Shown: in pieces, positions 4,630-20,772 of the stretch
Layout of the letters: every line of letters begins with the position of its first letter
Position numbering within the stretch: the stretch's first letter is position 1
Assembly: GCF_002019605.1 (NCBI RefSeq)
Contig: NZ_KV917368.1
Location: 2,735,517-2,759,516, forward strand
From: Alkalihalobacterium alkalinitrilicum
Lineage (GTDB): Bacteria; Bacillota; Bacilli; Bacillales; Bacillaceae_F
Direction of reading: 5' to 3'
Length of the DNA stretch: 24,000 nucleotides
Program-made: the position numbers and the translations under genes
The notes under the pieces: generated by a model
What the model was told of the DNA's origin: nothing
Database searches by the model: none
Seen by the model: only the letters and a program-made list of their open reading frames with translations

Positions 4630-4634
4630 ATTTT

Positions 4635-7909: not shown

Positions 7910-7936
7910 TTCTTTCAACCCGACCTTTTAATAATT

Positions 7937-9004: not shown

Positions 9005-9045
9005 TTAATAAAACCCTTTCCATAGTTCAAGCGTGCTTAATTTGC

Positions 9046-9948
9046 TCAACTATTTTTTAATACTGTCGCCTTACCTGTATTTTGAATATACAAGTAAAGT
9101 AAAATTCCTAGTGGTGTTGCAAGAAATGTCGTCATTTTACAAGGTGACTCTAATAGAAATTTGTAGTTTTTAACCATGAGATTACTTGAAACATAGTGTA
9201 TGGATTCTCTGACTCTATCCTTAAAAGTTGGTGCATATTTCATTGCAACCTTTCTAAAAAAAGAAAAACCGCGGGGGTTTTTCTTATATTGCTTAATTAT
9301 ATTCATACTAGAACCATCATTTAGGTATTCCACGTGACATAATACTTCATTCATTATAAGTAACGGGAATTCTTGATCAATTAAAATATACTTATAACTT
9401 AATGGACAGTATTTTTCACCTGGGAATAACGGATACGGTGGTGTTTTTCTTGTAAGTTCCGTGCGATAAACGAGCTTTTTATCACCTTTCACTTTGTGCT
9501 TTCCGTATAAGTCAGAAAGTGGTGCACTCTTCAAGCGCTCTGGTAGTTTTGTTCCTATGATTTCACCATCTTGAGTAGCATCGAGTCCTACAATGCCCGC
9601 ATAATCCTTACTGCCATATTGCCTCCAAAACGTTAAAATCTTTTCAACTGCATCATCCGCCATATAATCGTCTGAATCAATGCACACATTAAGTTCCGTT
9701 TCAATTAATTCATACGCTGTATTATGAGCACCATGCATTCCTTGGTTTTCTTGATAGTGATAATGAATGGGAATAGCTCCTTCTAACATCCAACTTTCGA
9801 CGAGTTCCCTTGTATTATCAGTTGACCCATCATCGATTATTAACCATACGAAATCTTTACAAGTTTGTCTCTTCAAACTCTCATAACACAAGTGAAGACA
9901 ATAGGCTCGATTAAATGAAGGTGTAAACACCGTTAATGTTGCATTCAT
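9046..9948 (-). CDS. Glycosyltransferase family 2
   Basis: LTVFTPSFNRAYCLHLCYESLKRQ...LIIDDGSTDNT...IDSDD (DxD). GGAGG RBS 9 nt upstream of the ATG. Confidence 0.8.
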   Translation of the reverse strand: MNATLTVFTPSFNRAYCLHLCYESLKRQTCKDFVWLIIDDGSTDNTRELVESWMLEGAIPIHYHYQENQGMHGAHNTAYELIETELNVCIDSDDYMADDAVEKILTFWRQYGSKDYAGIVGLDATQDGEIIGTKLPERLKSAPLSDLYGKHKVKGDKKLVYRTELTRKTPPYPLFPGEKYCPLSYKYILIDQEFPLLIMNEVLCHVEYLNDGSSMNIIKQYKKNPRGFSFFRKVAMKYAPTFKDRVRESIHYVSSNLMVKNYKFLLESPCKMTTFLATPLGILLYLYIQNTGKATVLKNS

Positions 9949-9966
9949 TACTAAAAACCTCCATAT

Positions 9967-11097
9967 TTATGCTTGCTTCTTTTCAATGACACGACCTGTA
10001 TAGTAACCTGTAAGCCAATCAGCCATTGTTCCAGTATCATAACCACATTTTCGTAATAACTCGGATGTATCTTTATGCTCATAAGTTAATGATAAGATTT
10101 TGTTTGCCCATTGTTGTGGAGGTTCCTCTAATGGTAGAAATTCAACTCTGCCAGTAAGATCTGCTTCATTTGTAATCGTATTAGAGACAACACAATTTAA
10201 CCCAGCTGCCTGCGCTTCAACGAGGACTACTGGTAAACCTTCAAAAAGAGACGGAAATAAAAATAGATCAAATCCTTGCATTAAATTTGCAATATCTTCT
10301 CTAACACCTAAAAAGTGAACATGGGAATACAGCTTTAAATCATTGACTTTCTTTTCAATTTGCTGTCGTAAATGTCCATCTCCAACTAAAACGAGTACTG
10401 AGTCGGGCTGTTTATCTTGGACAGCTTTAAAAATATCAATTAAATATTCATGATTTTTTTGTTTATTAAATCTACCAATATGACCGATAACGAGTTTATT
10501 TTCTGCGTTTAGCTCTTCTCTCACTTTTTTACGTATGTTCTCGTTAAACTGAAACTCTTCAACATTCACCGCATTGTTTAACACTTTAACTTGCTGAGAT
10601 TTTGTAATCTTTTTACCAAACAACCACTCACCTGCTTGTTTTGAGCAAGCAAAATAGTGATTAGCATTATCTTTCATTGCTAATCTTGCATAAACTCTAA
10701 ACGGAAGTTTTAAGTCAAGTCCTAGGTCACTTAAGTGACTATGTGCAATTCGACATGGAACACCTGCTTTTTTGGCAGCGCGAAGGACAAAACTACTATT
10801 CTCGTTAATATGAGAATGAACGACTTGATATTCAGGATGGGCTCCAAAAAATTGATCAAGTTGTTTGAAGTACAAGTTATAATTCCCAGGTCGAATCTTC
10901 GGCATTCTGAAAACTTTACCACCAAGTGCCACTATTTCATCATCATAATGCCCTTTTTCCGTTCGATGGACTATAAAATCAAACTGTATTTTAGAGCGGT
11001 CGATCTTTCGGTAATAGTTCATTAACATCGTTTCAAGTCCGCCACGATTCATGATCGTTACGACTTGGAGGATACGTATCGGTTTCAGCGTAAACAC
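9967..11097 (-). CDS. epsF: Glycosyltransferase family 4, EpsF-like
   Basis: ILQVVTIMNRGGLETMLMNYYRKIDRSKIQFDF and FPSLFEGLPVVLVEAQAAGL match recalled B. subtilis EpsF. The start is a GTG at 11097 with GGAG directly abutting it (poor spacing), so the exact start is uncertain. Confidence 0.75.
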   Translation of the reverse strand: MFTLKPIRILQVVTIMNRGGLETMLMNYYRKIDRSKIQFDFIVHRTEKGHYDDEIVALGGKVFRMPKIRPGNYNLYFKQLDQFFGAHPEYQVVHSHINENSSFVLRAAKKAGVPCRIAHSHLSDLGLDLKLPFRVYARLAMKDNANHYFACSKQAGEWLFGKKITKSQQVKVLNNAVNVEEFQFNENIRKKVREELNAENKLVIGHIGRFNKQKNHEYLIDIFKAVQDKQPDSVLVLVGDGHLRQQIEKKVNDLKLYSHVHFLGVREDIANLMQGFDLFLFPSLFEGLPVVLVEAQAAGLNCVVSNTITNEADLTGRVEFLPLEEPPQQWANKILSLTYEHKDTSELLRKCGYDTGTMADWLTGYYTGRVIEKKQA

Positions 11098-11099
11098 TC

Positions 11100-12167
11100 C
11101 TATCTGATAATCTTTCGAAGTACTTCAATGCTTGATAACATTAAGTAAAAACCTAGAGCAAACCTTTGCTTTGCACAAAAATAAAACGCCCTCCACACTA
11201 TGGGGAATTGCCCCAACTCAAACTCTTTAAAGGAACGTTTAATTCGGTGATCATGTAGTATTTGGTTAAGTCTGTTGATTTTTGTAACAGGTGATCTTTT
11301 ATTAGCTTTACTTACCTCGTTTAAGCCAAGGCCTAACGTATTCATACTTATCCGATTATTTAGTGCTTGATAGAAGTCGTCACCCAAATCTTTTTCTTTT
11401 ATCAATTTTTCTATTATTTGATATAAATTTGACCAGTTGTCGATCAGCTTTGGTTTATACCCAGTTGTCACAGATGTTGAATTGACACGCCAATAATGAT
11501 AAAAAGGTTTATTGATAAAAGAAAATGTTTTCGTATAATAAAAAGCTTCGATATTAAATAATGAATCTTCGTTTGTCCCAATCACGCTTAAATCCGTAAA
11601 CGTGATGCCGTTATCTTTAATGATGTCGGCTCTATATAACTTAGACCAAACAGTTCCCCAAGCATCTAATAATTCTGGATTAGCTACTTCTTCTTTTAAT
11701 GGACCAACTAACCTTCTCATCACCTTTTCTTGAACATCATTTGCTTTATAAGTAATCTTTTCAGGCAAATTAAATTGTTTTTCCTTGGAGTGGCTGCCAA
11801 ACTCCCGCATATACGAACACATGACGATGTCGGCTCCATCTACTATTGCGGTTTCGTACATTTCTTCATACATTTCTTGATCCACCCAATCATCTGGATC
11901 AACGAAACCAATGAACTCGCCAGTTGCATTTGCTAGTCCTGCATTACGGGCTGACGAAACGCCACCATTTTCTTTGTCTATCACTTTAATCCGCTGATCC
12001 TTCGCAGCATACTCATGAAGAATGTCTAAGCTATTATCAGTAGACCCATCATTAACAGCAATAACCTCAATATCTAATAGCGTTTGGGATATTAAACTAT
12101 CAATAGATCTACTTAAATAATCTTCTACATTATATATGGGCATGATGATACTGACTTTTGGTTTCAT
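11100..12167 (-). CDS. Glycosyltransferase family 2
   Basis: VSIIMPIYNVEDYLSRSIDSLISQ...VNDGSTDNS...GFVDPDD. GGAGGAAG RBS. The ATG lies 38 nt inside the upstream epsD-like ORF. Confidence 0.85.
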   Translation of the reverse strand: MKPKVSIIMPIYNVEDYLSRSIDSLISQTLLDIEVIAVNDGSTDNSLDILHEYAAKDQRIKVIDKENGGVSSARNAGLANATGEFIGFVDPDDWVDQEMYEEMYETAIVDGADIVMCSYMREFGSHSKEKQFNLPEKITYKANDVQEKVMRRLVGPLKEEVANPELLDAWGTVWSKLYRADIIKDNGITFTDLSVIGTNEDSLFNIEAFYYTKTFSFINKPFYHYWRVNSTSVTTGYKPKLIDNWSNLYQIIEKLIKEKDLGDDFYQALNNRISMNTLGLGLNEVSKANKRSPVTKINRLNQILHDHRIKRSFKEFELGQFPIVWRAFYFCAKQRFALGFYLMLSSIEVLRKIIR

Positions 12168-13296
12168 TTTCTTCCTCCAGCATATAGCGTGTGTAGATGG
12201 TGCTTAGTTCTTGACTGATTTGTGAGAGGGAATAGGTGTTCATTAGGTTTATACTCGCTGCTCCCATTTGGCTTCGTAAGTCGGTATTTTGATAAATTCT
12301 TAGCAAGCCTCTCGCAAACTGCCCGTAGTCATGAGGAGATACGAGATAACCGTTCACTTGATCCTGAACGAGCTCGACATGGCCACGATTTTTACTTGCG
12401 ACAATCGGTAGTCCGCAGGCCATCGCTTCCATAATGTTGACGGGAAGCCCTTCTCTAAAGCTTGATCCGACAGCAATGTCACACATGGGAAGGATTTGGT
12501 CGATATCTTTTCGAAAGCCGAGAAAAACGACCATATGTTCAATTCCTAGTTGTTTGACGAGCTGCTTACAGCTTTCTTGAAGAGCGCCTTCGCCAGCGAG
12601 TAACAGCTTCGCGTTTGGCATATAGTCTTGAACTAAAGCAAGTGAGCGGATTAGCAATTGTTGGTTTTTATTTTTGTTAAATTCAGCTGCATAAAAGATG
12701 AAAAAGTCATCTGGATGATAGCCAAATGACTTTTTGCGTTCGCTTTTTTCAGTTTCAGTGATTGGTTTAAAGCGCTCTGTATCAACCCCCACTCCGTGAA
12801 CATGGTCGACTTCAATTGCTTTAAACTTGTGATGATTGGCTAATTGATAATCTTCTGCGTTGATCGTGATCAGACAATCGGTATACTTTGCCAACTGCTT
12901 TTCAATCGGATAATAGATGAGCCAATTTAAAGTGGGCGCTCCTTTACAAAAGTGAAAGCCATGTGCTGTATAAAGGACTTTTGTTCCAGATTTTCTAGCT
13001 TTTCGTGCGGCTAGCCTAGCAAGAACGCCTCCTAGCGGTGTATGACAATGGATGATGTCATAATCGTTTTCTTTAATAATTGCTTTTATTTGTTGATACG
13101 CCTTCACATTTTTCAACTTAAAAGGAGAGCGTTGAATTGGGATCCTAAACTTTTGATCCGTATACGGTAAATCAATTTCACCTTTAGCTGCGATGTGCAC
13201 TTCCCAGCCTTGCTCCTTAAACCATTTCATAAACGGTAAGTGAAAAGCCTTGAAATGATAGTCAACGGTTGCACAAAACAAAATTTTTTTAGGCAT
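12130..13296 (-). CDS. epsD: Glycosyltransferase family 4, EpsD-like
   Basis: The N-terminus KKILFCATVDYHFKAFHLPFMKWFKEQGWEVH is nearly identical to recalled B. subtilis EpsD. It also has the GT-B C-terminal EGLP motif. Confidence 0.82.
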   Translation of the reverse strand: MPKKILFCATVDYHFKAFHLPFMKWFKEQGWEVHIAAKGEIDLPYTDQKFRIPIQRSPFKLKNVKAYQQIKAIIKENDYDIIHCHTPLGGVLARLAARKARKSGTKVLYTAHGFHFCKGAPTLNWLIYYPIEKQLAKYTDCLITINAEDYQLANHHKFKAIEVDHVHGVGVDTERFKPITETEKSERKKSFGYHPDDFFIFYAAEFNKNKNQQLLIRSLALVQDYMPNAKLLLAGEGALQESCKQLVKQLGIEHMVVFLGFRKDIDQILPMCDIAVGSSFREGLPVNIMEAMACGLPIVASKNRGHVELVQDQVNGYLVSPHDYGQFARGLLRIYQNTDLRSQMGAASINLMNTYSLSQISQELSTIYTRYMLEEENETKSQYHHAHI

Positions 13297-13322
13297 TTAT
13301 ACCACCCATTCAAATCATTAAG

Positions 13323-14201
13323 TTATTTAATGAGTTCTTTTTCCATGACTTTTGATAAATATTCGAGTAAGTCATGCTTTAAATCTTCACGTTGAAGGGC
13401 AAACTCGATCGTTGTTTGAATAAAGCCCATTTTTTCACCAACATCATAACGGGTTCCTTCAAAATCATATGCGTAAACCGCTTCATATTCATTTAAGCCA
13501 CTAATGGCATCCGTTAACTGAATTTCTCCACCAGCTCCCGGCTTTTGTTTACTTAAGATGTCAAAGATTTTTGGACTTAAAATATACCGGCCTAAGATGG
13601 CTAGGTTTGACGGTGCTTCTTCCTGCTTTGGCTTTTCAACAAGATTGCTTACATTATAAAAACGTTCCCCGATGGACGTCGCATCAACAATCCCGTATCT
13701 TGAAACATCTTCATCTGCGACATGTTGAACACCGATAATCGAAGCATTATAACGCTCATATTGTTCCATCATTTGTTGCAAGCATGGCTTTTCGGCTTGA
13801 ACGATATCATCACCTAGTAAGACAGCAAATGGCTCATTACCAATAAATTTGCGAGCGCACCAGATTGCATGGCCTAACCCTTTTGGTTCCTTTTGCCTGA
13901 TATAATGGATGTCTACGAGTTTTGAAGATTTTTGAACTTCATTTAATAGTTCAAACTTGCCTTTTTCTAATAGATTTTGTTCTAATTCAAAAGAGTGGTC
14001 AAAATGATCTTCAATCGCTCGTTTACCCTTACCTGTAACGATAATAATATCTTCAATGCCAGATTCGATCGCTTCTTCAATAATATATTGGATCGTTGGT
14101 TTATCAACGATTGGTAACATCTCTTTTGGCATCGCTTTTGTCGCTGGGAGAAATCTTGTTCCTAACCCTGCAGCTGGAATAATCGCTTTTCTTACTTTCA
14201 T
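13323..14201 (-). CDS. gtaB: UTP-glucose-1-phosphate uridylyltransferase
   Basis: Canonical GalU/GtaB N-terminus [40 protein letters not shown] and VEKP motif. AAGGAG RBS. Confidence 0.93.
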
Positions 14202-14216
14202 TTACATGCACTCCTT

Positions 14217-16043
14217 TTAACTTGGGATTGTCAATAGTGGTTTAACGGAAACTTTGTTATTTGCTAAATTCAATAAAGCTTCCCTCAGTGTGTCTTTATC
14301 TAACTTTGAATAATTTTTAATAATCTCTTCAATTTCGGTCATGTAAAGTACTGATGTTTTTCCGATATAAATCATTGGATATACTTGCTCTTCTTGAACT
14401 TCTTCTTCTTTTAAAAGTTCTTCAAATAACTTCTCGCCTGGACGCATGCCACTAAATTCAATTTCGATTTCCTCTAGTGAGTTGCCCGATAATTTGATCA
14501 AGTTTTTCGCCAAGTCTACAATTTTGACAGGTTCGCCCATATCTAACACGAAAATTTCTCCGCCTTTCGCTAATGCTCCAGCTTGGATGACTAGGCGAGA
14601 AGCTTCTGGGATCGTCATAAAATAACGAACCATATCAGGGTGTGTTACCGTGACAGGTCCGCCTTTTTCAATCTGCTTTTTAAATAATGGGATGACGCTT
14701 CCTCGACTTCCTAATACGTTACCGAAACGGACAGCAACGAACTTCGTTTGGCTTTGATTATTCATATCTTGAATAATCATTTCTGCTAATCGTTTCGTAG
14801 CACCCATAACACTCGTTGGATTGACAGCTTTATCGGTTGAGATCATCACAAAGGTATCGACATGGTGTAAACTAGCTGCCATTGCTACATTCCTCGTACC
14901 GATTAAATTATTTTTGACAGCTTCTTCAGGGTTTCTTTCCATTAACGGAACATGTTTATGAGCAGCTGCATGATACACGACATCTGGATGATATGTATTC
15001 ATCACGGTTAGCATTTTATTGGCATCTTGTAAGTCGGCAATCTCAGTAATAAAATCAATATTCGTATGGACAAACGTCTCCTTTAATTCCATCTCAATCG
15101 AGTAAATGCTATTTTCGCCATGACCTAATAACACTAACTGCTTAGGATTAAAGTTTGAGATTTGCCGACACACTTCAGAACCAATTGAGCCTCCCGCACC
15201 TGTTACTAGAACGACCCTGTCAGTGATATATCCAGAAATTTTATCAATGTCGAGTTGGACAGGCTCACGGCCGAGTAAGTCCTCAACTTGGACATCGCGG
15301 AATTGATTAACTGAAACCTTTCCGGTGACAAGATCCTCTAACATCGGCATGATTTGCGCCTTTGCCTTTGTTTTCACACAAGCTTGAAAAATATCATTTA
15401 ACTCTTTTTTACTTAATGAAGGGATGGCGATGATAATATTTTCAATGTTTAACTTATTTACTGTTTCCTCGATTCCACTCGAACCACCAACGACAGGTAT
15501 TCCTAAAATATCTAATTGTTGTTTTTTCATATCATCATCAATAAAAGCAATAGGTAGTAACTCCCCGTCATTACTTTTTAAAAGTTGTCTCGCAACCATC
15601 GTTCCCGCAGAACCAGCACCGATGATGAGCGTTCTTTTTTTATTGTCTTCTTTATTCATATACGTATCACGATACATTCGCCAAACAAAGCGAGAACTTC
15701 CAATGAGTAAGATATGAAGCATCCACGTGATCGCTAACACGCGCAAGAATGTTTCTTGCAGGAAAAATTGCTGAACTAAAAATGCAGTAAGAATTGAAAA
15801 GGTAACGACTTTAAAAATGATTAATAGTTCCCCAATGCTCGCATACTCCCAGGCTTTTTTATACAGCTTTAGTACAATCGCAAAGAAATGATGACTCACT
15901 AATATAACGATTAGACTAGTAATGATCGGTAGTGTAAAAAAATTCAAGTCTGCTTTAACGAGAAAATGGCTGACAAAGATCGCCGTTAAAACAATACATG
16001 AATCAATGAGTATAAATAAGGAAAGCCTTTGCCGATACGTCAT
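14217..16043 (-). CDS. epsC: Membrane-anchored polysaccharide biosynthesis protein, UDP-GlcNAc 4,6-dehydratase type (EpsC/CapD/PglF-like)
   Basis: Four N-terminal TM helices followed by two Rossmann regions (IIGAGSAG; VTGAGGSIGSE). Also has the CapD-like core (YHAAAHKHVPLME, MISTDKAVNPTSVMGATKR). AGGAGGGG RBS. Confidence 0.9.
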   Translation of the reverse strand: MTYRQRLSLFILIDSCIVLTAIFVSHFLVKADLNFFTLPIITSLIVILVSHHFFAIVLKLYKKAWEYASIGELLIIFKVVTFSILTAFLVQQFFLQETFLRVLAITWMLHILLIGSSRFVWRMYRDTYMNKEDNKKRTLIIGAGSAGTMVARQLLKSNDGELLPIAFIDDDMKKQQLDILGIPVVGGSSGIEETVNKLNIENIIIAIPSLSKKELNDIFQACVKTKAKAQIMPMLEDLVTGKVSVNQFRDVQVEDLLGREPVQLDIDKISGYITDRVVLVTGAGGSIGSEVCRQISNFNPKQLVLLGHGENSIYSIEMELKETFVHTNIDFITEIADLQDANKMLTVMNTYHPDVVYHAAAHKHVPLMERNPEEAVKNNLIGTRNVAMAASLHHVDTFVMISTDKAVNPTSVMGATKRLAEMIIQDMNNQSQTKFVAVRFGNVLGSRGSVIPLFKKQIEKGGPVTVTHPDMVRYFMTIPEASRLVIQAGALAKGGEIFVLDMGEPVKIVDLAKNLIKLSGNSLEEIEIEFSGMRPGEKLFEELLKEEEVQEEQVYPMIYIGKTSVLYMTEIEEIIKNYSKLDKDTLREALLNLANNKVSVKPLLTIPS

Positions 16044-16066
16044 CTTGCCCCTCCTTTCTAATCGAT

Positions 16067-16210
16067 TTAATCTAGGGATAACGTCCTTCTTTCAATTGCA
16101 TATTCGACTAGTTTTTTGATCTCATCAAGTTCCTCTTGCGATGCATCTTGCTTTATATAACGAATTGCCTTCTTTATCGACTTAGGCAATCGATCAAAGT
16201 CTTTGGTCAT
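16067..16210 (-). CDS. Hypothetical 47-aa protein immediately upstream of epsC
   Basis: Below the track cut-off. ATG at 16210 with GAGGAG 7 nt upstream; TAA at 16069-16067, only 23 nt before the epsC ATG. Peptide MTKDFDRLPKSIKKAIRYIKQDASQEELDEIKKLVEYAIERRTLSLD. No family recognised. Confidence 0.45.
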   Translation of the reverse strand: MTKDFDRLPKSIKKAIRYIKQDASQEELDEIKKLVEYAIERRTLSLD

Positions 16211-16239
16211 ATCAACACTCCTCACTTTAGTTGGGAATT

Positions 16240-16291
16240 AAAAGTACTTAAGTTTACGGTCTTTCATAAAACCACATACTTAAGTACTTTT
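16240..16291. repeat. Perfect 14-bp inverted repeat (AAAAGTACTTAAGT / ACTTAAGTACTTTT) around a 24-nt loop
   Basis: Arms at 16240-16253 and 16278-16291 are exact reverse complements. Each arm is built from overlapping palindromes (AAGTACTT, ACTTAAGT). On the minus-strand transcript it forms an AU-rich hairpin ending in UUUU, between the structured-RNA candidate and the 47-aa ORF RBS. Confidence 0.8.
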
Positions 16292-16305
16292 ATTTAATAA
16301 AAAAT

Positions 16306-16415
16306 AGGGCATCTAACCCCTCCTCACACCATACTATCGACGACTTGCGTCTAAGGTTTGTCAACCCACAGCATGACCGAGTACCTCCGTTGATAATGGT
16401 AAGGAGGTATCACCA
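16306..16415 (-). ncRNA. Candidate EAR (eps-associated RNA / epsC motif) processive-antitermination element
   Basis: It lies in the epsB-epsC intergenic gap, where EAR sits in Bacillales eps operons, and is locally GC-rich compared with its AT-rich flanks. On the minus-strand RNA there is a hairpin GAUACCUCC (16411-16403) / GGAGGUACUC (16388-16379). Its 14-nt loop segment ACCAUUAUC can pair with the downstream GAUAGUAUGGU (16338-16328), giving 9 bp with a 2-nt bulge, i.e. a pseudoknot. Small hairpins GGUUGACAAACC and GACGCAAGUCGUC are also present. I did not compare it with the Rfam model. Confidence 0.4.
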
Positions 16416-16436
16416 AATTTGATTTTTATAACGCAC

Positions 16437-16458
16437 ATTATAATTCTCAATAAAGAAC
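16437..16458 (-). promoter_or_regulatory. Sin-type operator variant abutting a TATAAT hexamer, 20 nt downstream of the epsB stop
   Basis: Plus strand ATTCTCAATAAAGAAC (16443-16458) differs at one base from the reverse complement of the box at 20585-20600. On the minus strand it is followed directly by TATAAT (16442-16437). The -35 is poor (CTTAAC). Confidence 0.3.
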
Positions 16459-16478
16459 GTTAAGGTAAAAAAATATAG

Positions 16479-17174
16479 TTATGATTTTTCGTTTATAATC
16501 GCTCCGATCAGCTCGGCTTTGGCAAATTTTAAAACTTTCTTGGCCTCAACCGCTTTTTCGATCTTACTTTTACCATGTCTTAAAACTAGAACGACCGTCT
16601 TACATTGATTGGCTAAAAGCTTTGTATCTGATACTTCTAATAAAGGTGGTGAATCTATTAATATAACATCGTAGGATTGGGAAGCCGTTTCTAGTAAGCG
16701 AGAAAATGCGTTCGACCCTAATAACTCTGCTGGATTATCGGGGAGCGGTCCACTCGTTAACACCTCTAATTTCCCTATATTCGTTTCTTTCACCGCTTCT
16801 TCAAACCAGTTTTGATTCGTTAATACCGATGATAAACCTAGTGAATTATCGAGTTTAAAAATCGAATGAATTCTTGGGCTTCTTAAATCAGCATCAATGA
16901 TGAGAACTTTTTCTTTTTGTTGTGCGATGGAAACCGCTAGATTGGCAACTGTTGTTGATTTTCCCTCTTGTAAAGATGGAGACGTCATCAAGATAGTCTT
17001 ACTCGGCTTTTCATTTGCTGAAAATTGGATATTGGTTCGAATCGTTCGAAATTCTTCTGTAATAATCGACTCTGGGTTGGAAAATGTGATTAAATTTCGT
17101 TTTTGATTTTTATTAGTTATAACACTTTTAAGTCTTTTTAAGATCAACAATCTCACCTCGGTATTCTGTTTCAC
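16479..17174 (-). CDS. epsB: BY-kinase-type P-loop ATPase (EpsB/YwqD/CapB-like), without a C-terminal tyrosine cluster
   Basis: EEFRTIRTNIQF, Walker A (SPSLQEGKST), Walker A' (VLIIDADLR) and Walker B (DVILIDSPP). The track start at 17174 is a GTG. A TTG at 17147 has better spacing from GAGGTGA. The protein ends ...LIGAIINEKS. Confidence 0.82.
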   Translation of the reverse strand: MKQNTEVRLLILKRLKSVITNKNQKRNLITFSNPESIITEEFRTIRTNIQFSANEKPSKTILMTSPSLQEGKSTTVANLAVSIAQQKEKVLIIDADLRSPRIHSIFKLDNSLGLSSVLTNQNWFEEAVKETNIGKLEVLTSGPLPDNPAELLGSNAFSRLLETASQSYDVILIDSPPLLEVSDTKLLANQCKTVVLVLRHGKSKIEKAVEAKKVLKFAKAELIGAIINEKS

Positions 17175-17829
17175 GATGCTTCTTCTTTTTCTTATTAATA
17201 TTCTTTTTATTCATTTTTGAAACAGAGCCTAATATGGGAAGTCCTATTAATTCTTCTACGTCTCGATCCGAGCTAACTGTATCATCCAGAGAATTTAGTA
17301 AAAATACAAAGCCTGTTCCAATGACAAGTCCCATAATAAACGCAATATATATTGTTCTATTACTTTTACTATTGATTGGATATGGATTTACTTTCGCTTC
17401 AGACAAATAACTGACATCGTTAAAATCAACAATTTCTCCAATCTCATTTTTAAAAACCGTTGCAGTAGTATTGGCAATCTCTGCTGCTAAATTCGGATCT
17501 GTATCTATGACTGAAATTCTGACGACTTGTGAATTATCGATACTTTCAACCGTAATTTGCCCTGCTAATGCTTCTGGTGATCTCGTTAAGTTCAGTTCCA
17601 TGACGACCTTTTCCATGATAATCGAATCTCTCATAATAACTCTAAGTGTGTTCATATAATCTGAACTTGCACCTACGATTATGCGACTAGATGATTGGTA
17701 GAGAGATGTGATACTTGAAGAATTTTGAAAGTAGCCAGCAATTGTAGCAATCATCGTAATGACAACAATTATCCAAAAACGCTTTTTTATAATGAGAAAT
17801 ATTTCTCTTAAATTAATTTCTTTTGCCAT
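17128..17829 (-). CDS. epsA: Wzz/chain-length-determinant type transmembrane modulator (EpsA/YwqC/CapA-like)
   Basis: N-terminal TM helix (FWIIVVITMIATIAGYF), periplasmic-type middle region, second TM helix (IYIAFIMGLVIGTGFVFLL) and a basic cytoplasmic tail (KKNINKKKKKH). The track TTG at 17844 is rejected in favour of the ATG at 17829, which has GGAG 6 nt upstream. Confidence 0.82.
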   Translation of the reverse strand: MAKEINLREIFLIIKKRFWIIVVITMIATIAGYFQNSSSITSLYQSSSRIIVGASSDYMNTLRVIMRDSIIMEKVVMELNLTRSPEALAGQITVESIDNSQVVRISVIDTDPNLAAEIANTTATVFKNEIGEIVDFNDVSYLSEAKVNPYPINSKSNRTIYIAFIMGLVIGTGFVFLLNSLDDTVSSDRDVEELIGLPILGSVSKMNKKNINKKKKKHRETEYRGEIVDLKKT

Positions 17830-17869
17830 ATCGTTCTCCACCAACTTATTATTTGATTACTTTAGTGTA

Positions 17870-17885
17870 GTTCTCTTTAAAGAAC
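17870..17885. promoter_or_regulatory. Sin-type operator in the eps leader (GTTCTCTTTAAAGAAC)
   Basis: 16-bp imperfect palindrome (12/16 self-complementary) containing the published B. subtilis SinR consensus GTTCTYT. It lies 41-56 nt upstream of the epsA ATG. Confidence 0.5.
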
Positions 17886-17991: not shown

Positions 17992-18020
17992 ATTTTAGTT
18001 CTTTATAAAGAACATGTCAA
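17992..18020 (-). promoter_or_regulatory. Sigma-A-type eps promoter with a perfect Sin-type palindrome in the spacer
   Basis: The minus strand reads TTGACA (18020-18015), then T + GTTCTTTATAAAGAAC (17-nt spacer, box at 18013-17998), then TAAAAT (17997-17992). The -35 is canonical with a 17-bp spacer, and the -10 matches 5/6. Confidence 0.6.
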
Positions 18021-18033: not shown

Positions 18034-18399
18034 TTATTCGCAAAATTCATTATGGCTTACTTTCTTACTTTGATTTTTCATATGATCCAACTTTTGAATC
18101 ATATCTCTTAGTTCTTCTAAACTAATATTTTTTCGTTTCATTTCTTCGGTTAGGTGGATGAGTTGGATATCTACTACGTTTTCTTTAGTACTTGTCTTAC
18201 TTTGTCCATTAAAAAAATAAGCGATATCAATTTTAAAGTAGTTTGATAGACTTTCTAAAACTTCAATAGCAGGCTTCCGATTTCCGCGTTCAATTTTTGA
18301 TAAATTACTATAATTAAATTCAATTGCATCCCCTAATTCTTTTAATGTCATCCCATGGCTTAGTCGCAAATCTTTAATTCTCTCTCCAATATGCTTCAA
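18034..18399 (-). CDS. XRE-family HTH regulator with a C-terminal Sin-like helical region (SlrR-like candidate)
   Basis: N-terminal HTH_3 pattern (IKDLRLSHGMTLKELGDAIEFNYSNLSKIERGNRKP). The C-terminus LIHLTEEMKRKNISLEELRDMIQKL loosely resembles the SinI/SinR interaction helices. TTG start at 18399 supported by GGAGTGAG 6 nt upstream. It sits next to epsA, as slrR does in B. subtilis. Confidence 0.7.
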   Translation of the reverse strand: MKHIGERIKDLRLSHGMTLKELGDAIEFNYSNLSKIERGNRKPAIEVLESLSNYFKIDIAYFFNGQSKTSTKENVVDIQLIHLTEEMKRKNISLEELRDMIQKLDHMKNQSKKVSHNEFCE

Positions 18400-18438: not shown

Positions 18439-18497
18439 GTTCGTTACAAAGAACACAGTTTCGCTGTTACTATACCATGGATTGTCAAATTGAACAA
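18439..18497 (-). promoter_or_regulatory. Putative extended -10 promoter of the XRE gene plus a downstream Sin-type box
   Basis: Minus strand: TTGTTC (18497-18492), 17 nt, TGG-TATAGT (-10 at 18474-18469, TGn extension). Box GTTCGTTACAAAGAAC (18439-18454, 12/16 palindromic) lies just downstream of the predicted start. A further variant GTTCTTTTTATAGAGC sits at 18516-18531. Confidence 0.35.
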
Positions 18498-18649
18498 TAT
18501 ATAACTTTAGATTTTGTTCTTTTTATAGAGCTTTTTTTGTGAAAATCACATATTTCTATATATTAATTTACATTAATTGAACAAAAATACCACTAAAACG
18601 AATGCTTTGAAAAAAATGTTAAATTATATAATTTTTTTACAACTAACTA

Positions 18650-18681
18650 TTGTAATTACTTATCTGTTCTATATAATGAAC
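18650..18681 (+). promoter_or_regulatory. Putative promoter of the first sinI-like ORF, overlapped by a Sin-type box
   Basis: TTGTAA (18650-18655), 16 nt, TATAAT (18672-18677). The box GTTCTATATAATGAAC (18666-18681, 12/16 palindromic) contains the -10. Confidence 0.4.
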
Positions 18682-18719: not shown

Positions 18720-18878
18720 ATGAAGTATATTCAACCAATAAATCAAGTTAGAACACTCGATGAGGAATGGATCCAACTTATAAAATGTGCAAAAGACATC
18801 GGCCTCAAACCTGATGATGTAAAAAAATTTCTAGGTCAATTCGAAAAGGACAAAAAAATAGCACAAAACAAAAACTAG
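18720..18878 (+). CDS. SinI/SlrA-like anti-repressor, 52 aa
   Basis: Not in the ORF track. Peptide MKYIQPINQVRTLDEEWIQLIKCAKDIGLKPDDVKKFLGQFEKDKKIAQNKN. It carries the Sin interaction motif LDxEWxxLIxxAKxxGLxxxxVKKFL seen in B. subtilis SinI (LDQEWVELMVEAKEANISPEEIRKYL). GGGGG lies 9 nt upstream. Confidence 0.7.
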   Translation: MKYIQPINQVRTLDEEWIQLIKCAKDIGLKPDDVKKFLGQFEKDKKIAQNKN

Positions 18879-18914
18879 ACTTAATTCGTAATATACATTA
18901 TGAATTAAGTCTAG
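18875..18914 (+). terminator. Hairpin after the first sinI-like ORF (possible weak intrinsic terminator)
   Basis: Perfect 13-bp stem CTAGACTTAATTC (18875-18887) / GAATTAAGTCTAG (18902-18914) with a 14-nt loop, followed by TTTC. The stem is AT-rich and the U-tract short. Confidence 0.4.
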
Positions 18915-19153
18915 TTTCAAAAGACCTTTACTCTTCTAATTTTTATTTTACTATATTTACACTATTACTAATTTAGTAATACATATAGGTATTTATAACT
19001 ATAAAATAATTCTCTTGATCTAGGAAAACCTTGTAGAATTTTTGCTTTTTTTCGTATATTTACACCTAAACTAATACGAAATGACAATTTCTTAACTACT
19101 AAAAACCAACAGCAAGACCTGTACCATGCGTCTTTAATCTTCCCATAAGTAAA

Positions 19154-19160
19154 TGTCGAA
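19154..19160 (+). promoter_or_regulatory. Exact Spo0A-box consensus heptamer TGTCGAA
   Basis: Exact match to the 0A-box consensus TGNCGAA, about 200 nt upstream of sinI. In B. subtilis, sinI is Spo0A-activated. A single 7-mer could occur by chance. Confidence 0.3.
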
Positions 19161-19362: not shown

Positions 19363-19485
19363 ATGAATACTAAGACCCATGAGGTTTTAGACAATGAATG
19401 GACAGCTCTTATGAGGGAAGCAAAAGATCTAGGAATAACGATTGAGGAAGTAAAGGAATATCTTAAAAACAGTAGAAAGACATGA
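19363..19485 (+). CDS. sinI: SinI anti-repressor, 40 aa
   Basis: Not in the ORF track. Peptide MNTKTHEVLDNEWTALMREAKDLGITIEEVKEYLKNSRKT with the LDxEWxxLMxEAKxxGIxxEEVKxYL motif. GGAGG RBS at 19351-19355. It lies 81 nt upstream of sinR, the canonical sinI-sinR arrangement. Confidence 0.82.
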   Translation: MNTKTHEVLDNEWTALMREAKDLGITIEEVKEYLKNSRKT

Positions 19486-19492: not shown

Positions 19493-19528
19493 GTTCTATT
19501 TACAGAACTAGCTTAAAACTGTTATAAT
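19493..19528 (+). promoter_or_regulatory. Internal sinR promoter (P3-like) overlapped by a Sin-type box
   Basis: TTTACA (19499-19504), 18 nt, TG-T-TATAAT (extended -10, hexamer at 19523-19528). The box GTTCTATTTACAGAAC (19493-19508, 12/16 palindromic) covers the -35. Confidence 0.45.
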
Positions 19529-19566: not shown

Positions 19567-19902
19567 ATGATCGGTGAAAAAGTCAAGAAATTACGCTTAG
19601 AAAAGGGCTTATCTTTATCTGAACTAGCAGAATCTGCTGGAGTTGCAAAGTCTTACTTAAGTTCAATTGAAAGAAACATCCAATCGAATCCTTCGATACA
19701 ATTCCTTGAAAAGATCTCAAAAGTTTTAGGTGTAAGCGTCGAGACCGTATTAAACGAAAATAATGAAAAACAATCGGTAACCGAATACGACCTAGACTCT
19801 GCTTGGATCGAGTTAGTCAAAGAAGCTATGGAGTCAGGTGTGAGTAAAGAGCAATTCCGTGAATACTTGGAATTTAATAAATGGCGTAAACACAATAGTT
19901 AA
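19567..19902 (+). CDS. sinR: SinR master biofilm repressor
   Basis: 111 aa, collinear with recalled B. subtilis SinR: MIG...KGxSLSELAExAGVAKSYLSSIERNxQxNPSIQFLEKxSxVLxVSV and C-terminal SGVSKxQFRExLxxxKWRK. Confidence 0.92.
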   Translation: MIGEKVKKLRLEKGLSLSELAESAGVAKSYLSSIERNIQSNPSIQFLEKISKVLGVSVETVLNENNEKQSVTEYDLDSAWIELVKEAMESGVSKEQFREYLEFNKWRKHNS

Positions 19903-19962: not shown

Positions 19963-20004
19963 AAAAAAATACCCCGCCTCATTACATCGAGGTGGGTTAT
20001 TTTT
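19963..20004. terminator. Bidirectional intrinsic terminator shared by convergent sinR and the HTH-only gene
   Basis: A-tract (19963-19969), stem CCCGCCTC (19973-19980) / GAGGTGGG (19989-19996) with an 8-nt loop, then TTATTTTT. On the minus strand the stem has one A-C mismatch but is followed by U7. It overlaps the last codons of the minus-strand ORF. Confidence 0.7.
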
Positions 20005-20212
20005 CTTCTGGGGTATTCAAAACCTTAATTAAATAAACAAGTTCAACACCAAGGGACTGTGCCAATTTTTCTAACACAGAAATGCTTGGATTAGTTTGTA
20101 GTCCACGTTCAATGTAACTGAGATATGACTTTGAAATACCTGACAGCTCTGAGAGTCGATCTAAAGACATTCCTTTCTTTTTTCGTAACTCTCTAATATT
20201 CCCCCCATTCAT
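19997..20212 (-). CDS. HTH-only SinR paralog (71 aa XRE-family DNA-binding domain, no C-terminal Sin interaction region)
   Basis: KGMSLDRLSELSGISKSYLSYIERGLQTNPSISVLEKLAQSLGVEL aligns residue for residue with the SinR HTH region encoded at 19567-19902. The protein stops about 10 aa after the HTH domain. AGGAGAG RBS 6 nt before the ATG. Confidence 0.75.
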   Translation of the reverse strand: MNGGNIRELRKKKGMSLDRLSELSGISKSYLSYIERGLQTNPSISVLEKLAQSLGVELVYLIKVLNTPEEK

Positions 20213-20247
20213 TTGTATCTCTCCTTTTTATTATGATCATCGCCCTC

Positions 20248-20260
20248 AAAAAAAAAAAAA
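20248..20260. repeat. A13 (T13 on the transcribed minus strand) homopolymer
   Basis: Thirteen consecutive A bases between the stop of the 95-aa ORF (20263) and the RBS of the HTH-only gene. Confidence 0.9.
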
Positions 20261-20262
20261 CT

Positions 20263-20550
20263 CTAGTATACTTCAAATCTCATTTCGTAGTAATAATCAT
20301 CCGTTTGATTTTTTTTTATTGAAGTAAGGATCATACCGTATATTTCAATTCCGTCTAACAATTTTAATGACACTTTATAAATTACATCCTCTGAAACTGG
20401 AAACTTTAAAGAACTTATAAATATTAGTGATGTTGTTGTAAATTCAACTATTTCTACTTTTGTACATTTAGAGTCGACAACCTTTCCTTTCACGACATGA
20501 ATGATGAGCTCTGCTTGAATGGGGTTGTCAATTGTAAATTCCGTCGTCAA
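20263..20550 (-). CDS. Small beta-rich protein, degenerate PilZ-like (tentative)
   Basis: 95 aa. TTG start with a strong AAGGAGG 8 nt upstream. Alternating beta-strand pattern ...KVEIVEFTTTSLIFISSLKFPVSEDVIYKVSLKLLDGIEIYGMILTSIKK....YYYEMRFE resembles the PilZ barrel (DxSxxG-strand, hairpins, final Y.F strand). It lacks the RxxxR and DxSxxG c-di-GMP motifs. Confidence 0.55.
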   Translation of the reverse strand: MTTEFTIDNPIQAELIIHVVKGKVVDSKCTKVEIVEFTTTSLIFISSLKFPVSEDVIYKVSLKLLDGIEIYGMILTSIKKNQTDDYYYEMRFEVY

Positions 20551-20584
20551 TTACCTGTCCTCCTTAAAAGTTTTTTACACCACT

Positions 20585-20630
20585 GTTCTTTATAGAGAAT
20601 ATTATAGTTTATTTGTTCTTTATAGTAAAC
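20585..20630 (-). promoter_or_regulatory. Putative promoter of the 95-aa ORF bracketed by two Sin-type boxes
   Basis: Minus strand TTTACT (20629-20624), 17 nt, TATAAT (20606-20601). Box GTTCTTTATAGAGAAT (20585-20600) abuts the -10 and covers the predicted start. Box GTTCTTTATAGTAAAC (20615-20630) covers the -35 and spacer. The boxes share TGTTCTTTATAG as a direct repeat exactly 30 bp apart. Confidence 0.45.
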
Positions 20631-20730
20631 GATATAATAGTAACTAGTTCATTAAAATGAAATCAGGTCTTTTATACTAAGTGATTACACTTTTGTTTTT
20701 ACTAACTTATTTATATAAGGCTCGTTTTAA

Positions 20731-20772
20731 GCACAAAAAAATGATAGAACAAAGTAAAAATGTTCTATCATT
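20731..20772 (-). terminator. Intrinsic terminator of the aldehyde dehydrogenase operon
   Basis: Perfect 11-bp stem (20762-20772 / 20740-20750) with an 11-nt loop. It is followed on the minus strand by a 7-U run, about 70 nt after the ALDH stop. Confidence 0.7.

What the first reader, a model, noticed from the sequence alone, without database searches (positions are those of the whole stretch)
20263..20630. Degenerate PilZ-like mini-protein co-transcribed with the HTH-only paralog under a double-operator promoter
The 95-aa ORF has a strong AAGGAGG RBS and a TTG start. Its strand pattern resembles a PilZ beta-barrel, but I do not see the RxxxR / DxSxxG c-di-GMP-binding motifs. Its promoter-like element (TTTACT-17-TATAAT) is sandwiched by two Sin-type boxes exactly 30 bp apart, i.e. 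on the same helical face. That would make it a member of the Sin regulon that is not eps or tasA. A PilZ-like adaptor under SinR control could link the matrix switch to motility or another output. I cannot name a described counterpart.
Basis: partly seen in the sequence, partly recalled or inferred. Interest (0 to 1): 0.65.

Follow-up and report, generated by a model that had tools for sequence, protein, structure and literature searches.

The report
Motif-less PilZ barrel wired to SinR

Summary
ORF 20263..20550 (-) encodes 95 aa from a TTG start, with AAGGAGG 8 nt upstream. Its promoter is TTTACT-17-TATAAT. Two Sin-type boxes lie exactly 30 bp apart, one over the -35 and one directly after the -10. 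Each box is really a 16-bp SinR-type palindrome (GTTCTTTATAAAGAAC-like). Such palindromes occur 10 times in the window against 0.44 expected, nearly all in the sin/eps control region.

The ORF is a real gene (dN/dS 0.09-0.25). Every homologue is named 'hypothetical protein', and neither the ORF nor any homologue examined has a Pfam hit. An exhaustive profile search nevertheless reaches bona fide PilZ proteins (51 of 71 hits). hhalign against canonical PilZ gives 99.5% probability. A confident AF2 model (pLDDT 89.7) best matches PilZ domains such as BcsA, MotI, MrkH and YcgR.

The N-terminal RxxxR arm is absent and [D/N]hSxxG has become E-F-T-T-T-S. The C-terminal helix is also missing, so c-di-GMP binding is probably lost.

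The module PilZ-like -> HTH-only SinR paralog, convergent on sinR-sinI, is conserved in 13 loci from several genera with different flanks. The promoter boxes are conserved with it. Function remains inferred: most likely a SinR-repressed protein-protein adaptor. I rate it a new variant of a known kind.

The parts
20263..20550 (-). Gene for a 95-aa minimal PilZ-like beta-barrel protein (TTG start; end coordinate includes the stop codon)
   Evidence: ORF. Orthologues are 56-64% identical to it across the alignment and dN/dS is 0.09-0.25. Profile homology to PilZ proteins. AF2 model pLDDT 89.7 with six strands and no helix. Foldseek top hits are PilZ domains.
20559..20565 (-). Ribosome-binding site AAGGAGG, 8 nt upstream of the TTG start
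   Evidence: Read directly from the sequence. GGAGG is conserved at the same place in orthologues.
20601..20629 (-). Sigma-A-type promoter TTTACT-17-TATAAT
   Evidence: Promoter scan, 10 of 12 consensus positions. The GTTTAC -35 and the -10 are conserved in 13 loci.
20615..20630 (.). Operator O2: GTTTACTATAAAGAAC on the gene strand, a Sin-type 16-mer that contains the -35 hexamer
   Evidence: 3 mismatches to the palindrome. Nearly invariant in 8 close loci. An intact O2 16-mer is also present in L012, L016 and L018; L013 and L014 keep the GTTTAC -35 but no intact O2 box.
20585..20600 (.). Operator O3: ATTCTCTATAAAGAAC on the gene strand, a Sin-type palindrome starting directly after the -10 and covering the predicted transcription start
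   Evidence: 2 mismatches to the palindrome. Present with 0-3 mismatches in all 13 loci, 30-31 bp downstream of the start of O2 / the GTTTAC -35.
20647..20662 (.). Degenerate remnant of upstream operator O1: TTTCATTTTAATGAAC, 4 mismatches, 32 bp upstream of O2
   Evidence: Most relatives carry an intact GTTCTTTATA(A/G)(A/C)GAAT-type box 31-33 bp upstream of O2.
20213..20262 (-). 50-nt intergenic spacer with a T13 run and the RBS of the downstream gene; no terminator
   Evidence: RNA fold -6.4 kcal/mol, z = 0.19. No terminator called here. The equivalent genes overlap by ATGA in L014 and abut in L018.
19997..20212 (-). Second gene of the operon: a 71-aa HTH-only paralog of SinR, lacking the SinI-type C-terminal domain
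   Evidence: Pfam HTH_3 E 8.4e-19 with no PF08671 hit. Best solved-structure hit is the SinR N-terminal domain, E 2.8e-14, and the recognition helix is nearly identical. 50% identical to the window's SinR.
19973..19996 (.). GC-rich hairpin terminator between the convergent HTH-only and sinR genes. It was detected on the + strand; a bidirectional role is inferred from A/T runs on both sides.
   Evidence: Terminator scan; sequence read.
19567..19902 (+). sinR (111 aa), the likely repressor acting on O2 and O3
   Evidence: Pfam HTH_3 plus SinI domain. E 2.9e-40 over the full length to B. subtilis SinR 1b0n/3zkc; the helix-turn-helix and recognition segment (GVAKSYLSSIERN) is identical.
19363..19485 (+). 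sinI (40 aa), the anti-repressor expected to release the operon from SinR
   Evidence: Pfam SinI E 3.5e-13.
20740..20772 (-). Hairpin plus T-run terminator of the upstream aldehyde dehydrogenase gene, which would insulate the operon from read-through
   Evidence: Read directly from the sequence: 12-bp arms AATGATAGAACA / TGTTCTATCATT followed by a T run. Analogous hairpins are seen in orthologous loci. The scanner did not call it, probably because the loop is 9 nt.

Best explanation
This is a genuine two-gene operon that lies tail-to-tail with sinI-sinR.

First gene (shown): it encodes a 95-aa six-stranded beta-barrel that descends from canonical Firmicutes PilZ c-di-GMP receptors. It has lost the whole N-terminal RxxxR arm. 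It carries E36-F37-T38-T39-T40-S41 where [D/N]hSxxG should be; only the hydrophobic 'h' position is kept. It also lacks the C-terminal helix.

Second gene (shown): it encodes a 71-aa copy of the SinR DNA-binding domain without the SinI-type oligomerisation domain.

Promoter (shown): the -35 and the transcription start of the sigma-A promoter are each covered by a 16-bp SinR-type palindrome. A third palindrome lies upstream in relatives.

Inferred: the barrel no longer binds c-di-GMP and acts through protein-protein contacts, as other motif-less PilZ proteins do.

Inferred: SinR sits on O2 and O3 and keeps the operon off. When SinI inactivates SinR, the operon switches on together with the eps operon, which carries the same palindromes.

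Inferred, least certain: the barrel works together with Sin-type HTH proteins, meaning its operon partner and/or SinR itself, as a feedback or output adaptor of the switch. It would not be a second-messenger sensor.
For: Gene reality: dN/dS is 0.09-0.25 across orthologues, and the RBS and start position are conserved.

PilZ descent: an exhaustive profile search gave 72 hits. Of the 71 hits scanned, 51 are Pfam PilZ, including tandem-PilZ, EAL-PilZ and PAS-PilZ proteins. hhalign of the sinR-linked clade against canonical relatives gives 99.55% probability, E 2.3e-23. The AF2 model has pLDDT 89.7 and pTM 0.79. Foldseek top hits are BcsA-PilZ, MotI, MrkH, YcgR, PP4397, VCA0042, Alg44, MapZ and PA0012, with the better ones at query TM-score 0.6-0.7.

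Motif loss: alignments. More distant relatives still carry RxxxR and (D/N)xSxxG. P0024 is an intermediate that keeps only DxSxxG, and its gene directly follows a sinR homologue.

Linkage: PilZ-like (+ HTH-only) convergent on sinR-sinI appears in every locus examined from Alkalihalobacterium, Alkalihalophilus, Alkalihalobacillus, B. alkalicellulosilyticus, Bacillus sp. TS-2, Bacillus sp. JCM 19034 and metagenomes. The outer flanks differ.

Operators: 10 palindromes against 0.44 expected. The -35 and O3 are 30-31 bp apart in 13 loci. They are the invariant blocks of the promoter alignment. The boxes persist in L016, which has no HTH-only gene, pointing to SinR as the binder. The SinR recognition segment is identical to that of B. 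subtilis SinR, whose consensus is GTTCTYT with a preference for inverted repeats (PMC3163267).

Precedent for motif-less PilZ proteins acting through protein contacts: P. aeruginosa PilZ, Xanthomonas PilZ with FimX and PilB, and Xcc0612 (called XCC6012 in the PDB entry) (10.1101/814665).
Against: Pfam PF07238 does not hit the ORF even at E <= 10, nor its 10 closest non-orthologous relatives at E <= 1.

The structural evidence is not independent of the sequence evidence. The model built from only the 5 closest sequences was poor (pLDDT 57.8) and gave no meaningful PilZ matches. The confident model used an alignment that contains canonical PilZ proteins.

Foldseek E-values are modest; the best is 1.8e-3.

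No experiment shows SinR binding, derepression, loss of c-di-GMP binding or any protein partner.

Three Sin-type HTH proteins in the window (SinR, the 71-aa paralog and a 121-aa SlrR-like protein) could each recognise the boxes.

The upstream box O1 is degraded in this window.
Confidence: 0.7

Rival explanations
1. The boxes are mainly autoregulatory operators for the operon's own HTH-only protein, a Cro-like small repressor, rather than SinR sites. The operon would then be a self-contained regulator pair and not a SinR regulon member.
For: The HTH-only protein has almost the same recognition helix as SinR. Small Xre-type regulators commonly autoregulate (general knowledge). SinR(1-69) alone packs as a 434-Cro-like dimer (PMC3163267).
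Against: L016/L017 lack the HTH-only gene yet keep both O2 and O3 in front of the PilZ-like gene. The same palindrome sits at the eps, sinI-like and sinR promoters, so it is a shared Sin operator. This rival is not exclusive with SinR binding; both may bind.
Confidence: 0.2
2. The barrel is a c-di-GMP-independent motility brake. Like MotI/YcgR it would dock on the flagellar stator or rotor, but it would be controlled transcriptionally by SinR instead of by c-di-GMP, a role analogous to EpsE in the B. subtilis eps operon.
For: MotI (5vx6) is among the best structural matches: query TM-score 0.68, rmsd 2.6. SinR-controlled shut-off of motility on entry into biofilm is an established theme in B. 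subtilis (EpsE clutch; general knowledge). A CheC/CheX gene lies next to the PilZ-like gene in L016.
Against: MotI and YcgR are two-domain (PilZN + PilZ) proteins that need c-di-GMP, whereas this is a single 95-aa barrel without the motifs. No flagellar gene is linked in the window or in most loci. Tight linkage and translational coupling are to a Sin-type HTH gene, not to motility genes.
Confidence: 0.15
3. The protein still senses c-di-GMP or another nucleotide through a non-canonical site, so the operon would feed second-messenger information into the Sin switch.
For: The hydrophobic 'h' position and the barrel core are retained. The replacements D->E, S->T and G->S are conservative. [quoted passage not shown]
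Against: The entire N-terminal arm carrying RxxxR is missing; only 9 residues precede the conserved Pro10 where the barrel alignment begins. Published PilZ proteins lacking these motifs do not bind c-di-GMP.
Confidence: 0.08
4. The pair is a reversed toxin-antitoxin or defence-type module: a small toxin followed by an Xre-type antitoxin, as in higBA.
For: The gene order is a small protein followed by a small Xre HTH protein. Autoregulatory-looking operators cover the promoter. The HTH protein gives generic hits to control-protein and capH-type HTH models in PADLOC.
Against: The first protein has a PilZ barrel, not a RelE/HigB or other toxin fold. PADLOC gave only one marginal hit (REase_II, E 0.0022, 14.7 bits) and PHROGs nothing significant. 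The HTH protein is specifically SinR-like. The module sits at a fixed chromosomal position next to sinIR across genera, not on mobile elements.
Confidence: 0.04

Closest known systems
Canonical PilZ domain c-di-GMP receptors (Pfam PF07238; e.g. MapZ/PA4608, Alg44, BcsA C-terminal domain, small single-domain PilZ proteins of Firmicutes)
   Same: Same six-stranded beta-barrel. Clear profile-level homology. They share the S-x-L-x-F-P-V strand-turn signature and the hydrophobic 'h' residue.
   Different: No N-terminal RxxxR arm. E-F-T-T-T-S replaces [D/N]hSxxG. No C-terminal helix. Below the Pfam threshold. Probably no c-di-GMP binding.
Motif-less PilZ-related proteins that act by protein-protein contact (P. 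aeruginosa PilZ PA2960; Xanthomonas PilZ with FimX and PilB; Xcc0612, called XCC6012 in PDB 3ph1/3rqa; PilZN-type N-terminal barrels of YcgR, MotI and MrkH)
   Same: PilZ-derived fold with both binding motifs lost. 3ph1/3rqa and the two-domain proteins appear among the structural matches. PilZN1 likewise lacks the C-terminal helix and both motifs.
   Different: These are proteobacterial proteins or parts of two-domain proteins, and they serve type IV pili or flagella. This one is a stand-alone 95-aa barrel of Bacillaceae, genetically tied to sinIR and to a Sin-type HTH gene. It is a separate loss event, because its nearest motif-bearing relatives are Firmicutes PilZ proteins.
B. subtilis MotI (DgrA/YpfA)
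   Same: A PilZ-family protein from Bacillus and among the best structural matches (5vx6, query TM-score 0.68, rmsd 2.6).
   Different: MotI has 217 aa, two domains and is c-di-GMP dependent. It is not linked to sinR. This protein has one domain and no motifs.
SinR-repressed SinR paralog slrR of B. subtilis (double-negative feedback loop)
   Same: A SinR paralog gene placed under SinR-type operators in the sin/eps neighbourhood. Both the window's SinR and the HTH-only protein hit the NCBIfam SlrR model first, below its cut-off.
   Different: SlrR keeps the SinI-type C-terminal domain through which it binds SinR. The 71-aa paralog here has none and is instead co-expressed with the PilZ-like barrel. 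A separate 121-aa SlrR-like gene already occupies the slrR position upstream of eps.
MrkH (Klebsiella) and PlzA (Borrelia): PilZ-domain proteins that control transcription
   Same: A PilZ fold used in gene regulation; both are among the structural matches.
   Different: In those proteins the PilZ protein itself binds DNA and needs c-di-GMP. Here DNA binding would be supplied by a separate HTH protein, and the ligand site is gone.

Membership tests
PilZ domain (PF07238) | Six-stranded beta-barrel fold of PilZ type | tested here: met
   AF2 pLDDT 89.7, six strands. Foldseek top hits are PilZ domains, the better ones at query TM-score 0.6-0.7. Caveat: the alignment used for the model contained canonical PilZ sequences, and the model from 5 sequences was uninformative.
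PilZ domain (PF07238) | Significant sequence or profile similarity to bona fide PilZ proteins | tested here: met
   51 of 71 profile hits scanned are Pfam PilZ. hhalign 99.55%, E 2.3e-23.
PilZ domain (PF07238) | Score above the Pfam gathering threshold for PF07238 | tested here: not met
   No PilZ hit at E <= 10 for the ORF, nor at E <= 1 for its 10 closest non-orthologous relatives.
PilZ domain (PF07238) | N-terminal RxxxR c-di-GMP-binding motif | tested here: not met
   Only 9 residues precede the conserved Pro10 where the barrel alignment begins, and none is Arg. The hhalign match starts after the template's RxxFR.
PilZ domain (PF07238) | [D/N]hSxxG motif | tested here: not met
   The aligned residues are E36-F37-T38-T39-T40-S41. 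Only 'h' (F37) is kept. S41 is invariant in the clade where G should be.
PilZ domain (PF07238) | Binds c-di-GMP | not testable with these tools
   Needs DRaCALA, ITC or MST with purified protein.
SinR regulon (SinR-repressed promoters) | GTTCTYT motifs, preferably as inverted repeats, in the promoter | tested here: met
   Two 16-bp palindrome-like boxes at 20585 and 20615. Consensus and inverted-repeat preference from PMC3163267.
SinR regulon (SinR-repressed promoters) | Operators positioned to block RNA polymerase | tested here: met
   O2 contains the -35 hexamer. O3 starts at the base after the -10.
SinR regulon (SinR-repressed promoters) | Operators conserved in orthologous promoters | tested here: met
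   They are the invariant blocks in the 8-locus alignment. The +1 box and the GTTTAC -35, 30-31 bp apart, are present in all 13 loci including distant genera.
SinR regulon (SinR-repressed promoters) | Cognate SinR with B. subtilis-like DNA-recognition residues encoded in the genome | tested here: met
   The window's SinR matches 1b0n/3zkc at E 2.9e-40, and the recognition segment is identical.
SinR regulon (SinR-repressed promoters) | SinR binding in vitro and derepression in a sinR mutant | not testable with these tools
   Needs EMSA or footprinting, and RNA-seq or a reporter fusion.
SinR/SlrR family (for the 71-aa partner) | SinR-type Xre HTH domain | tested here: met
   HTH_3 E 8.4e-19. Best solved-structure hit is the SinR N-terminal domain, E 2.8e-14.
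SinR/SlrR family (for the 71-aa partner) | C-terminal SinI-type helical hook (PF08671) for oligomerisation and SinI binding | tested here: not met
   No PF08671 hit, and the protein ends 10 residues after the HTH domain.
MotI/YcgR family | Two-domain PilZN + PilZ architecture with intact c-di-GMP motifs | tested here: not met
   A single 95-aa barrel with the motifs absent.
Type II toxin-antitoxin (higBA-like, toxin first) | Recognisable toxin fold or family for the first gene | tested here: not met
   PilZ barrel. PADLOC gave only one marginal hit (REase_II, E 0.0022, 14.7 bits) and PHROGs nothing significant.

The most novel reading that the evidence does not exclude
The motif-less PilZ barrel is a new kind of Sin-switch component. 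It would bind the Sin-type HTH domain of its operon partner and/or of SinR, either as an anti-repressor or as an oligomerisation subunit for the tail-less paralog. Because SinR represses the operon, and a Sin box also covers the -35 of the sinR promoter, the pair would close a double-negative (CI/Cro-like) toggle. That toggle would make the matrix decision bistable without SlrR-type heterodimers and without c-di-GMP.
Probability: 0.2. Interest if true: 0.8.

Novelty: new variant of a known kind. Interest (0 to 1): 0.6.

Why it matters
The SinI/SinR/SlrR switch is the textbook circuit for the motile-to-biofilm decision in Bacillus. PilZ is the textbook c-di-GMP receptor. This work finds an unannotated protein family that is a PilZ barrel stripped of its ligand site. 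Every homologue found is named 'hypothetical protein', and no Pfam domain is recorded for the ORF or for any homologue examined.

The family is genetically fixed next to sinI-sinR, usually together with a tail-less SinR paralog. It sits behind a promoter whose -35 and start site carry SinR-type operators.

If the inferences hold, three things follow:
- A new, conserved target or component is added to the Sin regulon beyond eps and tasA.
- It provides a clean Gram-positive example of a second-messenger receptor fold recruited for ligand-independent signalling.
- It gives a directly testable handle on how Sin circuits are wired outside B. subtilis, through two small proteins and one 100-bp promoter.

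The family could also be added to PilZ-related domain classifications, which currently miss it.

Tried and rejected
- Direct family searches on the ORF gave nothing usable. Pfam found no PilZ hit at E <= 10 and only DUF4522 at E 0.076. NCBIfam gave only noise. A PDB sequence search found no hit with the single sequence or with the 27-sequence profile. PADLOC gave only a marginal REase_II hit (E 0.0022, 14.7 bits) and PHROGs nothing significant.
- The word-indexed homologue search found only 4 close relatives. The exhaustive profile search was needed to bridge to PilZ.
- AF2 with 5 sequences gave pLDDT 57.8. Its Foldseek matches were meaningless, so that model was not used as evidence.
- Terminator between the two genes: none found, so the idea of two separate transcription units was rejected.
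- Riboswitch or leader RNA: Rfam finds nothing near the operon, only epsC RNA at 16306..16415.
- Toxin-antitoxin and defence readings were rejected on fold, family and fixed chromosomal synteny.
- 'Not a gene' was rejected on dN/dS, conserved length and conserved RBS.
- Linkage to sinR does not extend to all relatives. P0017 sits in a phage-like context with no sinR. The P0019 contig is too short to tell.
- Literature searches for PilZ with SinR/SinI, SinR in A. pseudofirmus, and degenerate PilZ in Bacillus found nothing relevant.
Full report
**1. What is in the sequence**

The ORF lies on the minus strand at 20263..20550 and encodes 95 aa from a TTG start. AAGGAGG sits at 20565..20559, 8 nt upstream of the TTG. 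The promoter scan finds TTTACT-17-TATAAT at 20629..20601, matching 10 of 12 consensus positions.

Two GTTCTTT boxes lie at 20585 and 20615, exactly 30 bp apart. They belong to a 23-nt direct repeat. On the gene strand they read GTTTACTATAAAGAAC (O2, containing the -35) and ATTCTCTATAAAGAAC (O3, starting at the base after the -10).

Both are variants of the perfect 16-bp palindrome GTTCTTTATAAAGAAC. That palindrome is two inverted copies of the B. subtilis SinR consensus GTTCTYT. SinR binds inverted repeats about ten times more tightly than single or tandem sites (PMC3163267).

With up to 3 mismatches, the palindrome occurs 10 times in the 24-kb window against 0.44 expected; none of 100 shuffles reached 10. 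Eight of the ten hits lie between 17870 and 20630, and a ninth is at 16443 just inside the eps operon. The sites are:
- the eps-like operon promoter (17870, and a perfect copy at 17998);
- upstream of a 121-aa SlrR-like gene (18439);
- upstream of a second sinI-like ORF (18516, 18666);
- the sinR promoter (19493);
- the two boxes discussed here.

**2. The neighbourhood**

A 50-nt spacer follows the ORF. It has no terminator: the RNA fold gives z = 0.19 and the scanner calls none.

Next comes a 71-aa Xre-type HTH gene at 19997..20212 (-). Its product is 50% identical to the window's SinR. Its best solved-structure match is the SinR N-terminal domain, E 2.8e-14. It lacks the SinI-type C-terminal domain PF08671.

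A GC-rich hairpin at 19973..19996 separates this gene from the convergent sinR gene (19567..19902, +). That sinR matches B. subtilis SinR over its full length, E 2.9e-40, and the recognition segment is identical. Upstream of sinR lies sinI (19363..19485).

Upstream of the operon, the aldehyde dehydrogenase gene ends in a hairpin plus T-run at 20740..20772. The long minus-strand operon 405..17844 contains the epsC/EAR RNA, so it is a true eps operon.

**3. Is it a gene?**

Yes. Close homologues exist in Alkalihalobacillus sp. BA299, Alkalihalophilus pseudofirmus, three Alkalihalobacterium species and metagenomes. Their identity to the window protein is 61-67% depending on the method, and their length is conserved. 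Pairwise dN/dS is 0.09-0.25. The RBS and start position are conserved.

**4. What the protein is**

Direct searches fail. Pfam gives no PilZ hit at E <= 10. NCBIfam and PDB sequence searches give nothing useful.

A profile of the five closest sequences, searched exhaustively against 1.84 billion representatives, returned 72 proteins. Of the 71 hits scanned, 51 are Pfam PilZ proteins. They include tandem-PilZ, EAL-PilZ and PAS-PilZ proteins, which are genuine c-di-GMP network components.

hhalign of the sinR-linked clade (16 sequences) against 33 canonical relatives gives 99.55% probability, E 2.3e-23, over 93 columns.

With a 61-sequence alignment, AF2 gives pLDDT 89.7 and pTM 0.79. The model has six strands and no helix. 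Foldseek against the PDB puts PilZ domains first: BcsA, MotI, MrkH, YcgR, PP4397, VCA0042, Alg44, MapZ, PA0012, PlzA and the non-binding Xanthomonas protein of PDB 3ph1/3rqa. The better ones reach query TM-score 0.6-0.7.

There is a caveat. The model built from five sequences was poor (pLDDT 57.8) and its Foldseek matches were noise. The fold evidence therefore depends on the same homology that the profile searches establish.

**5. The motifs**

PilZ binds c-di-GMP through RxxxR and [D/N]hSxxG (10.1101/814665). Here only 9 residues precede the conserved Pro10, where the barrel alignment begins, and none is Arg. The hhalign match starts after the template's RxxFR. The second motif aligns to E36-F37-T38-T39-T40-S41, and S41 is invariant in the clade where Gly should be. 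Only the hydrophobic 'h' position survives. The C-terminal helix of canonical PilZ is also missing.

More distant relatives keep both motifs: P0019, P0027 and P0029 are Pfam PilZ at E 1e-8 to 2e-10. P0024 is an intermediate with an intact DxSxxG and no RxxxR. The family thus looks like stepwise decay of a ligand site inside a Firmicutes PilZ lineage.

**6. Conserved linkage and operators**

Every locus with enough flank shows the same layout: PilZ-like, then HTH-only, convergent on sinR-sinI. This holds for the close orthologues, where the aldehyde dehydrogenase flank is shared. It also holds for distant members whose outer flanks are entirely different:
- B. alkalicellulosilyticus (L012);
- a metagenome contig next to TasA/CalY-type M73 genes (L013);
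- GCA_000513135.1 (L014);
- Bacillus sp. TS-2 (L018).

In L014 the two genes overlap by ATGA, and in L018 they abut as TGAATG. This suggests translational coupling.

Bacillus sp. JCM 19034 (L016/L017) lacks the HTH-only gene. It keeps the PilZ-like gene convergent on sinR and retains both O2 and O3.

In L020 the intermediate PilZ protein P0024 directly follows a full-length sinR homologue that is 49% identical to the window's SinR. P0017, a more distant relative, is not linked to sinR.

The promoter architecture is retained in all 13 loci. The GTTTAC -35 (embedded in an intact O2 16-mer in most loci) and O3 are 30-31 bp apart. Most loci also have an upstream O1, 31-33 bp before O2. In this window O1 is degraded to 4 mismatches. 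In the 8-locus alignment, O2 and the -10/O3 segment are the invariant blocks, while the rest of the region drifts.

**7. Most likely mechanism**

Shown:
- the two genes form an operon by sequence criteria;
- the first product is a PilZ-derived barrel without the ligand motifs;
- SinR-type palindromes cover the -35 and the start site;
- the arrangement is conserved across genera.

Inferred:
- SinR occupies O2 and O3 (and O1 where it is intact, spaced about three helical turns apart, which fits a SinR tetramer);
- the operon is therefore silent while SinR is active and is induced together with eps when SinI sequesters SinR;
- the barrel is c-di-GMP-blind and acts through protein contacts.

The persistence of the boxes in the locus without the HTH-only gene favours SinR over pure autoregulation, although both proteins may bind. 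The tight coupling to a Sin-type HTH gene, rather than to flagellar or polysaccharide genes, makes a partner within the Sin system the most economical guess. A MotI-like motility brake remains possible. Toxin-antitoxin and defence readings are not supported.

**8. Comparison with known systems and novelty**

The protein works most like the motif-less PilZ proteins that signal through protein contacts: P. aeruginosa PilZ, Xanthomonas PilZ with FimX and PilB, Xcc0612 (called XCC6012 in the PDB entry), and PilZN-type barrels. It is, however, an independent Gram-positive lineage and a stand-alone minimal barrel, and it is the only one tied to sinIR.

As a PilZ domain it meets the fold and homology criteria. 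It fails the Pfam threshold and both motif criteria. It should therefore be described as a PilZ-related, ligand-site-less domain rather than as a PilZ receptor.

All homologues are annotated as 'hypothetical protein', and none has a precomputed Pfam domain. Full-text searches found no paper linking PilZ-type proteins to the sin locus.

I rate it a new variant of a known kind, with interest 0.6. The structural and genomic picture is solid and opens a simple experimental path into Sin-switch wiring outside B. subtilis. The function remains inferred.

Noticed in passing
window 16306..16415 (-): Rfam epsC (EAR) RNA, 111.5 bits, full-length, inside the long minus-strand operon 405..17844. This identifies the operon as a true eps operon with the processive-antitermination element known from B. 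subtilis.
   Followed up: partly
window 17870..17885, 17998..18013, 18439..18454, 18516..18531, 18666..18681: A cluster of Sin-type 16-bp palindromes. One is a perfect GTTCTTTATAAAGAAC at 17998 upstream of the eps operon. Others lie upstream of the 121-aa HTH gene and the second sinI-like ORF. Together they outline the local Sin regulon.
   Followed up: partly
window 19493..19508: The sinR promoter (TTTACA-18-TATAAT with TG extension) has its -35 embedded in the Sin box GTTCTATTTACAGAAC. The identical 16-mer is conserved in L001, L002, L004, L005, L006, L012 and L014. It is absent in L016 (no HTH-only gene) and in L013. This suggests auto- or cross-repression of sinR.
   Followed up: partly
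window 18034..18399 (-): A 121-aa Xre/SinR-like protein sits directly upstream of the eps operon, the slrR-like position. Its C-terminal part aligns with the SinR tail but is below Pfam SinI detection. It may be a divergent SlrR analogue.
   Followed up: partly
window 18720..18878 (+): A second SinI-domain ORF (52 aa, Pfam SinI E 3.5e-11) with its own Sin boxes upstream and a 21-nt, 95% complementary hairpin terminator at 18872..18917. Relatives carry one to three extra SinI-like ORFs.
   Followed up: no
window 19154..19160: A Spo0A-box-like TGTCGAA in the roughly 480-bp non-coding leader upstream of sinI. It is consistent with Spo0A control of sinI as in B. subtilis, but this was not tested.
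   Followed up: no
window 20248..20260: A run of 13 T (on the gene strand) in the spacer between the PilZ-like and HTH-only genes. It is absent from orthologous spacers and has no preceding stem, so it is not an intrinsic terminator. It is a possible slippage-prone tract.
   Followed up: partly
alignment A7: P0027, P0037, P0047, P0072, P0076 and others: Many of the canonical single-domain PilZ relatives end in a Cys-rich tail (C-x-x-C-x(4-6)-C). This may be a metal-binding or redox appendage. It was not examined.
   Followed up: no
L020 906..1693 (Logan SRR23875552): A full-length sinR homologue (49% identical to the window's SinR) is followed on the same strand by a PilZ gene that keeps DxSxxG but lacks RxxxR. 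This is an evolutionary intermediate and a different gene order for the sinR-PilZ linkage.
   Followed up: partly
loci L001-L018 (tblastn): Within the module the three proteins evolve at very different rates among close relatives: SinR 88-92% identical, HTH-only 80-89%, PilZ-like 62-67%.
   Followed up: no
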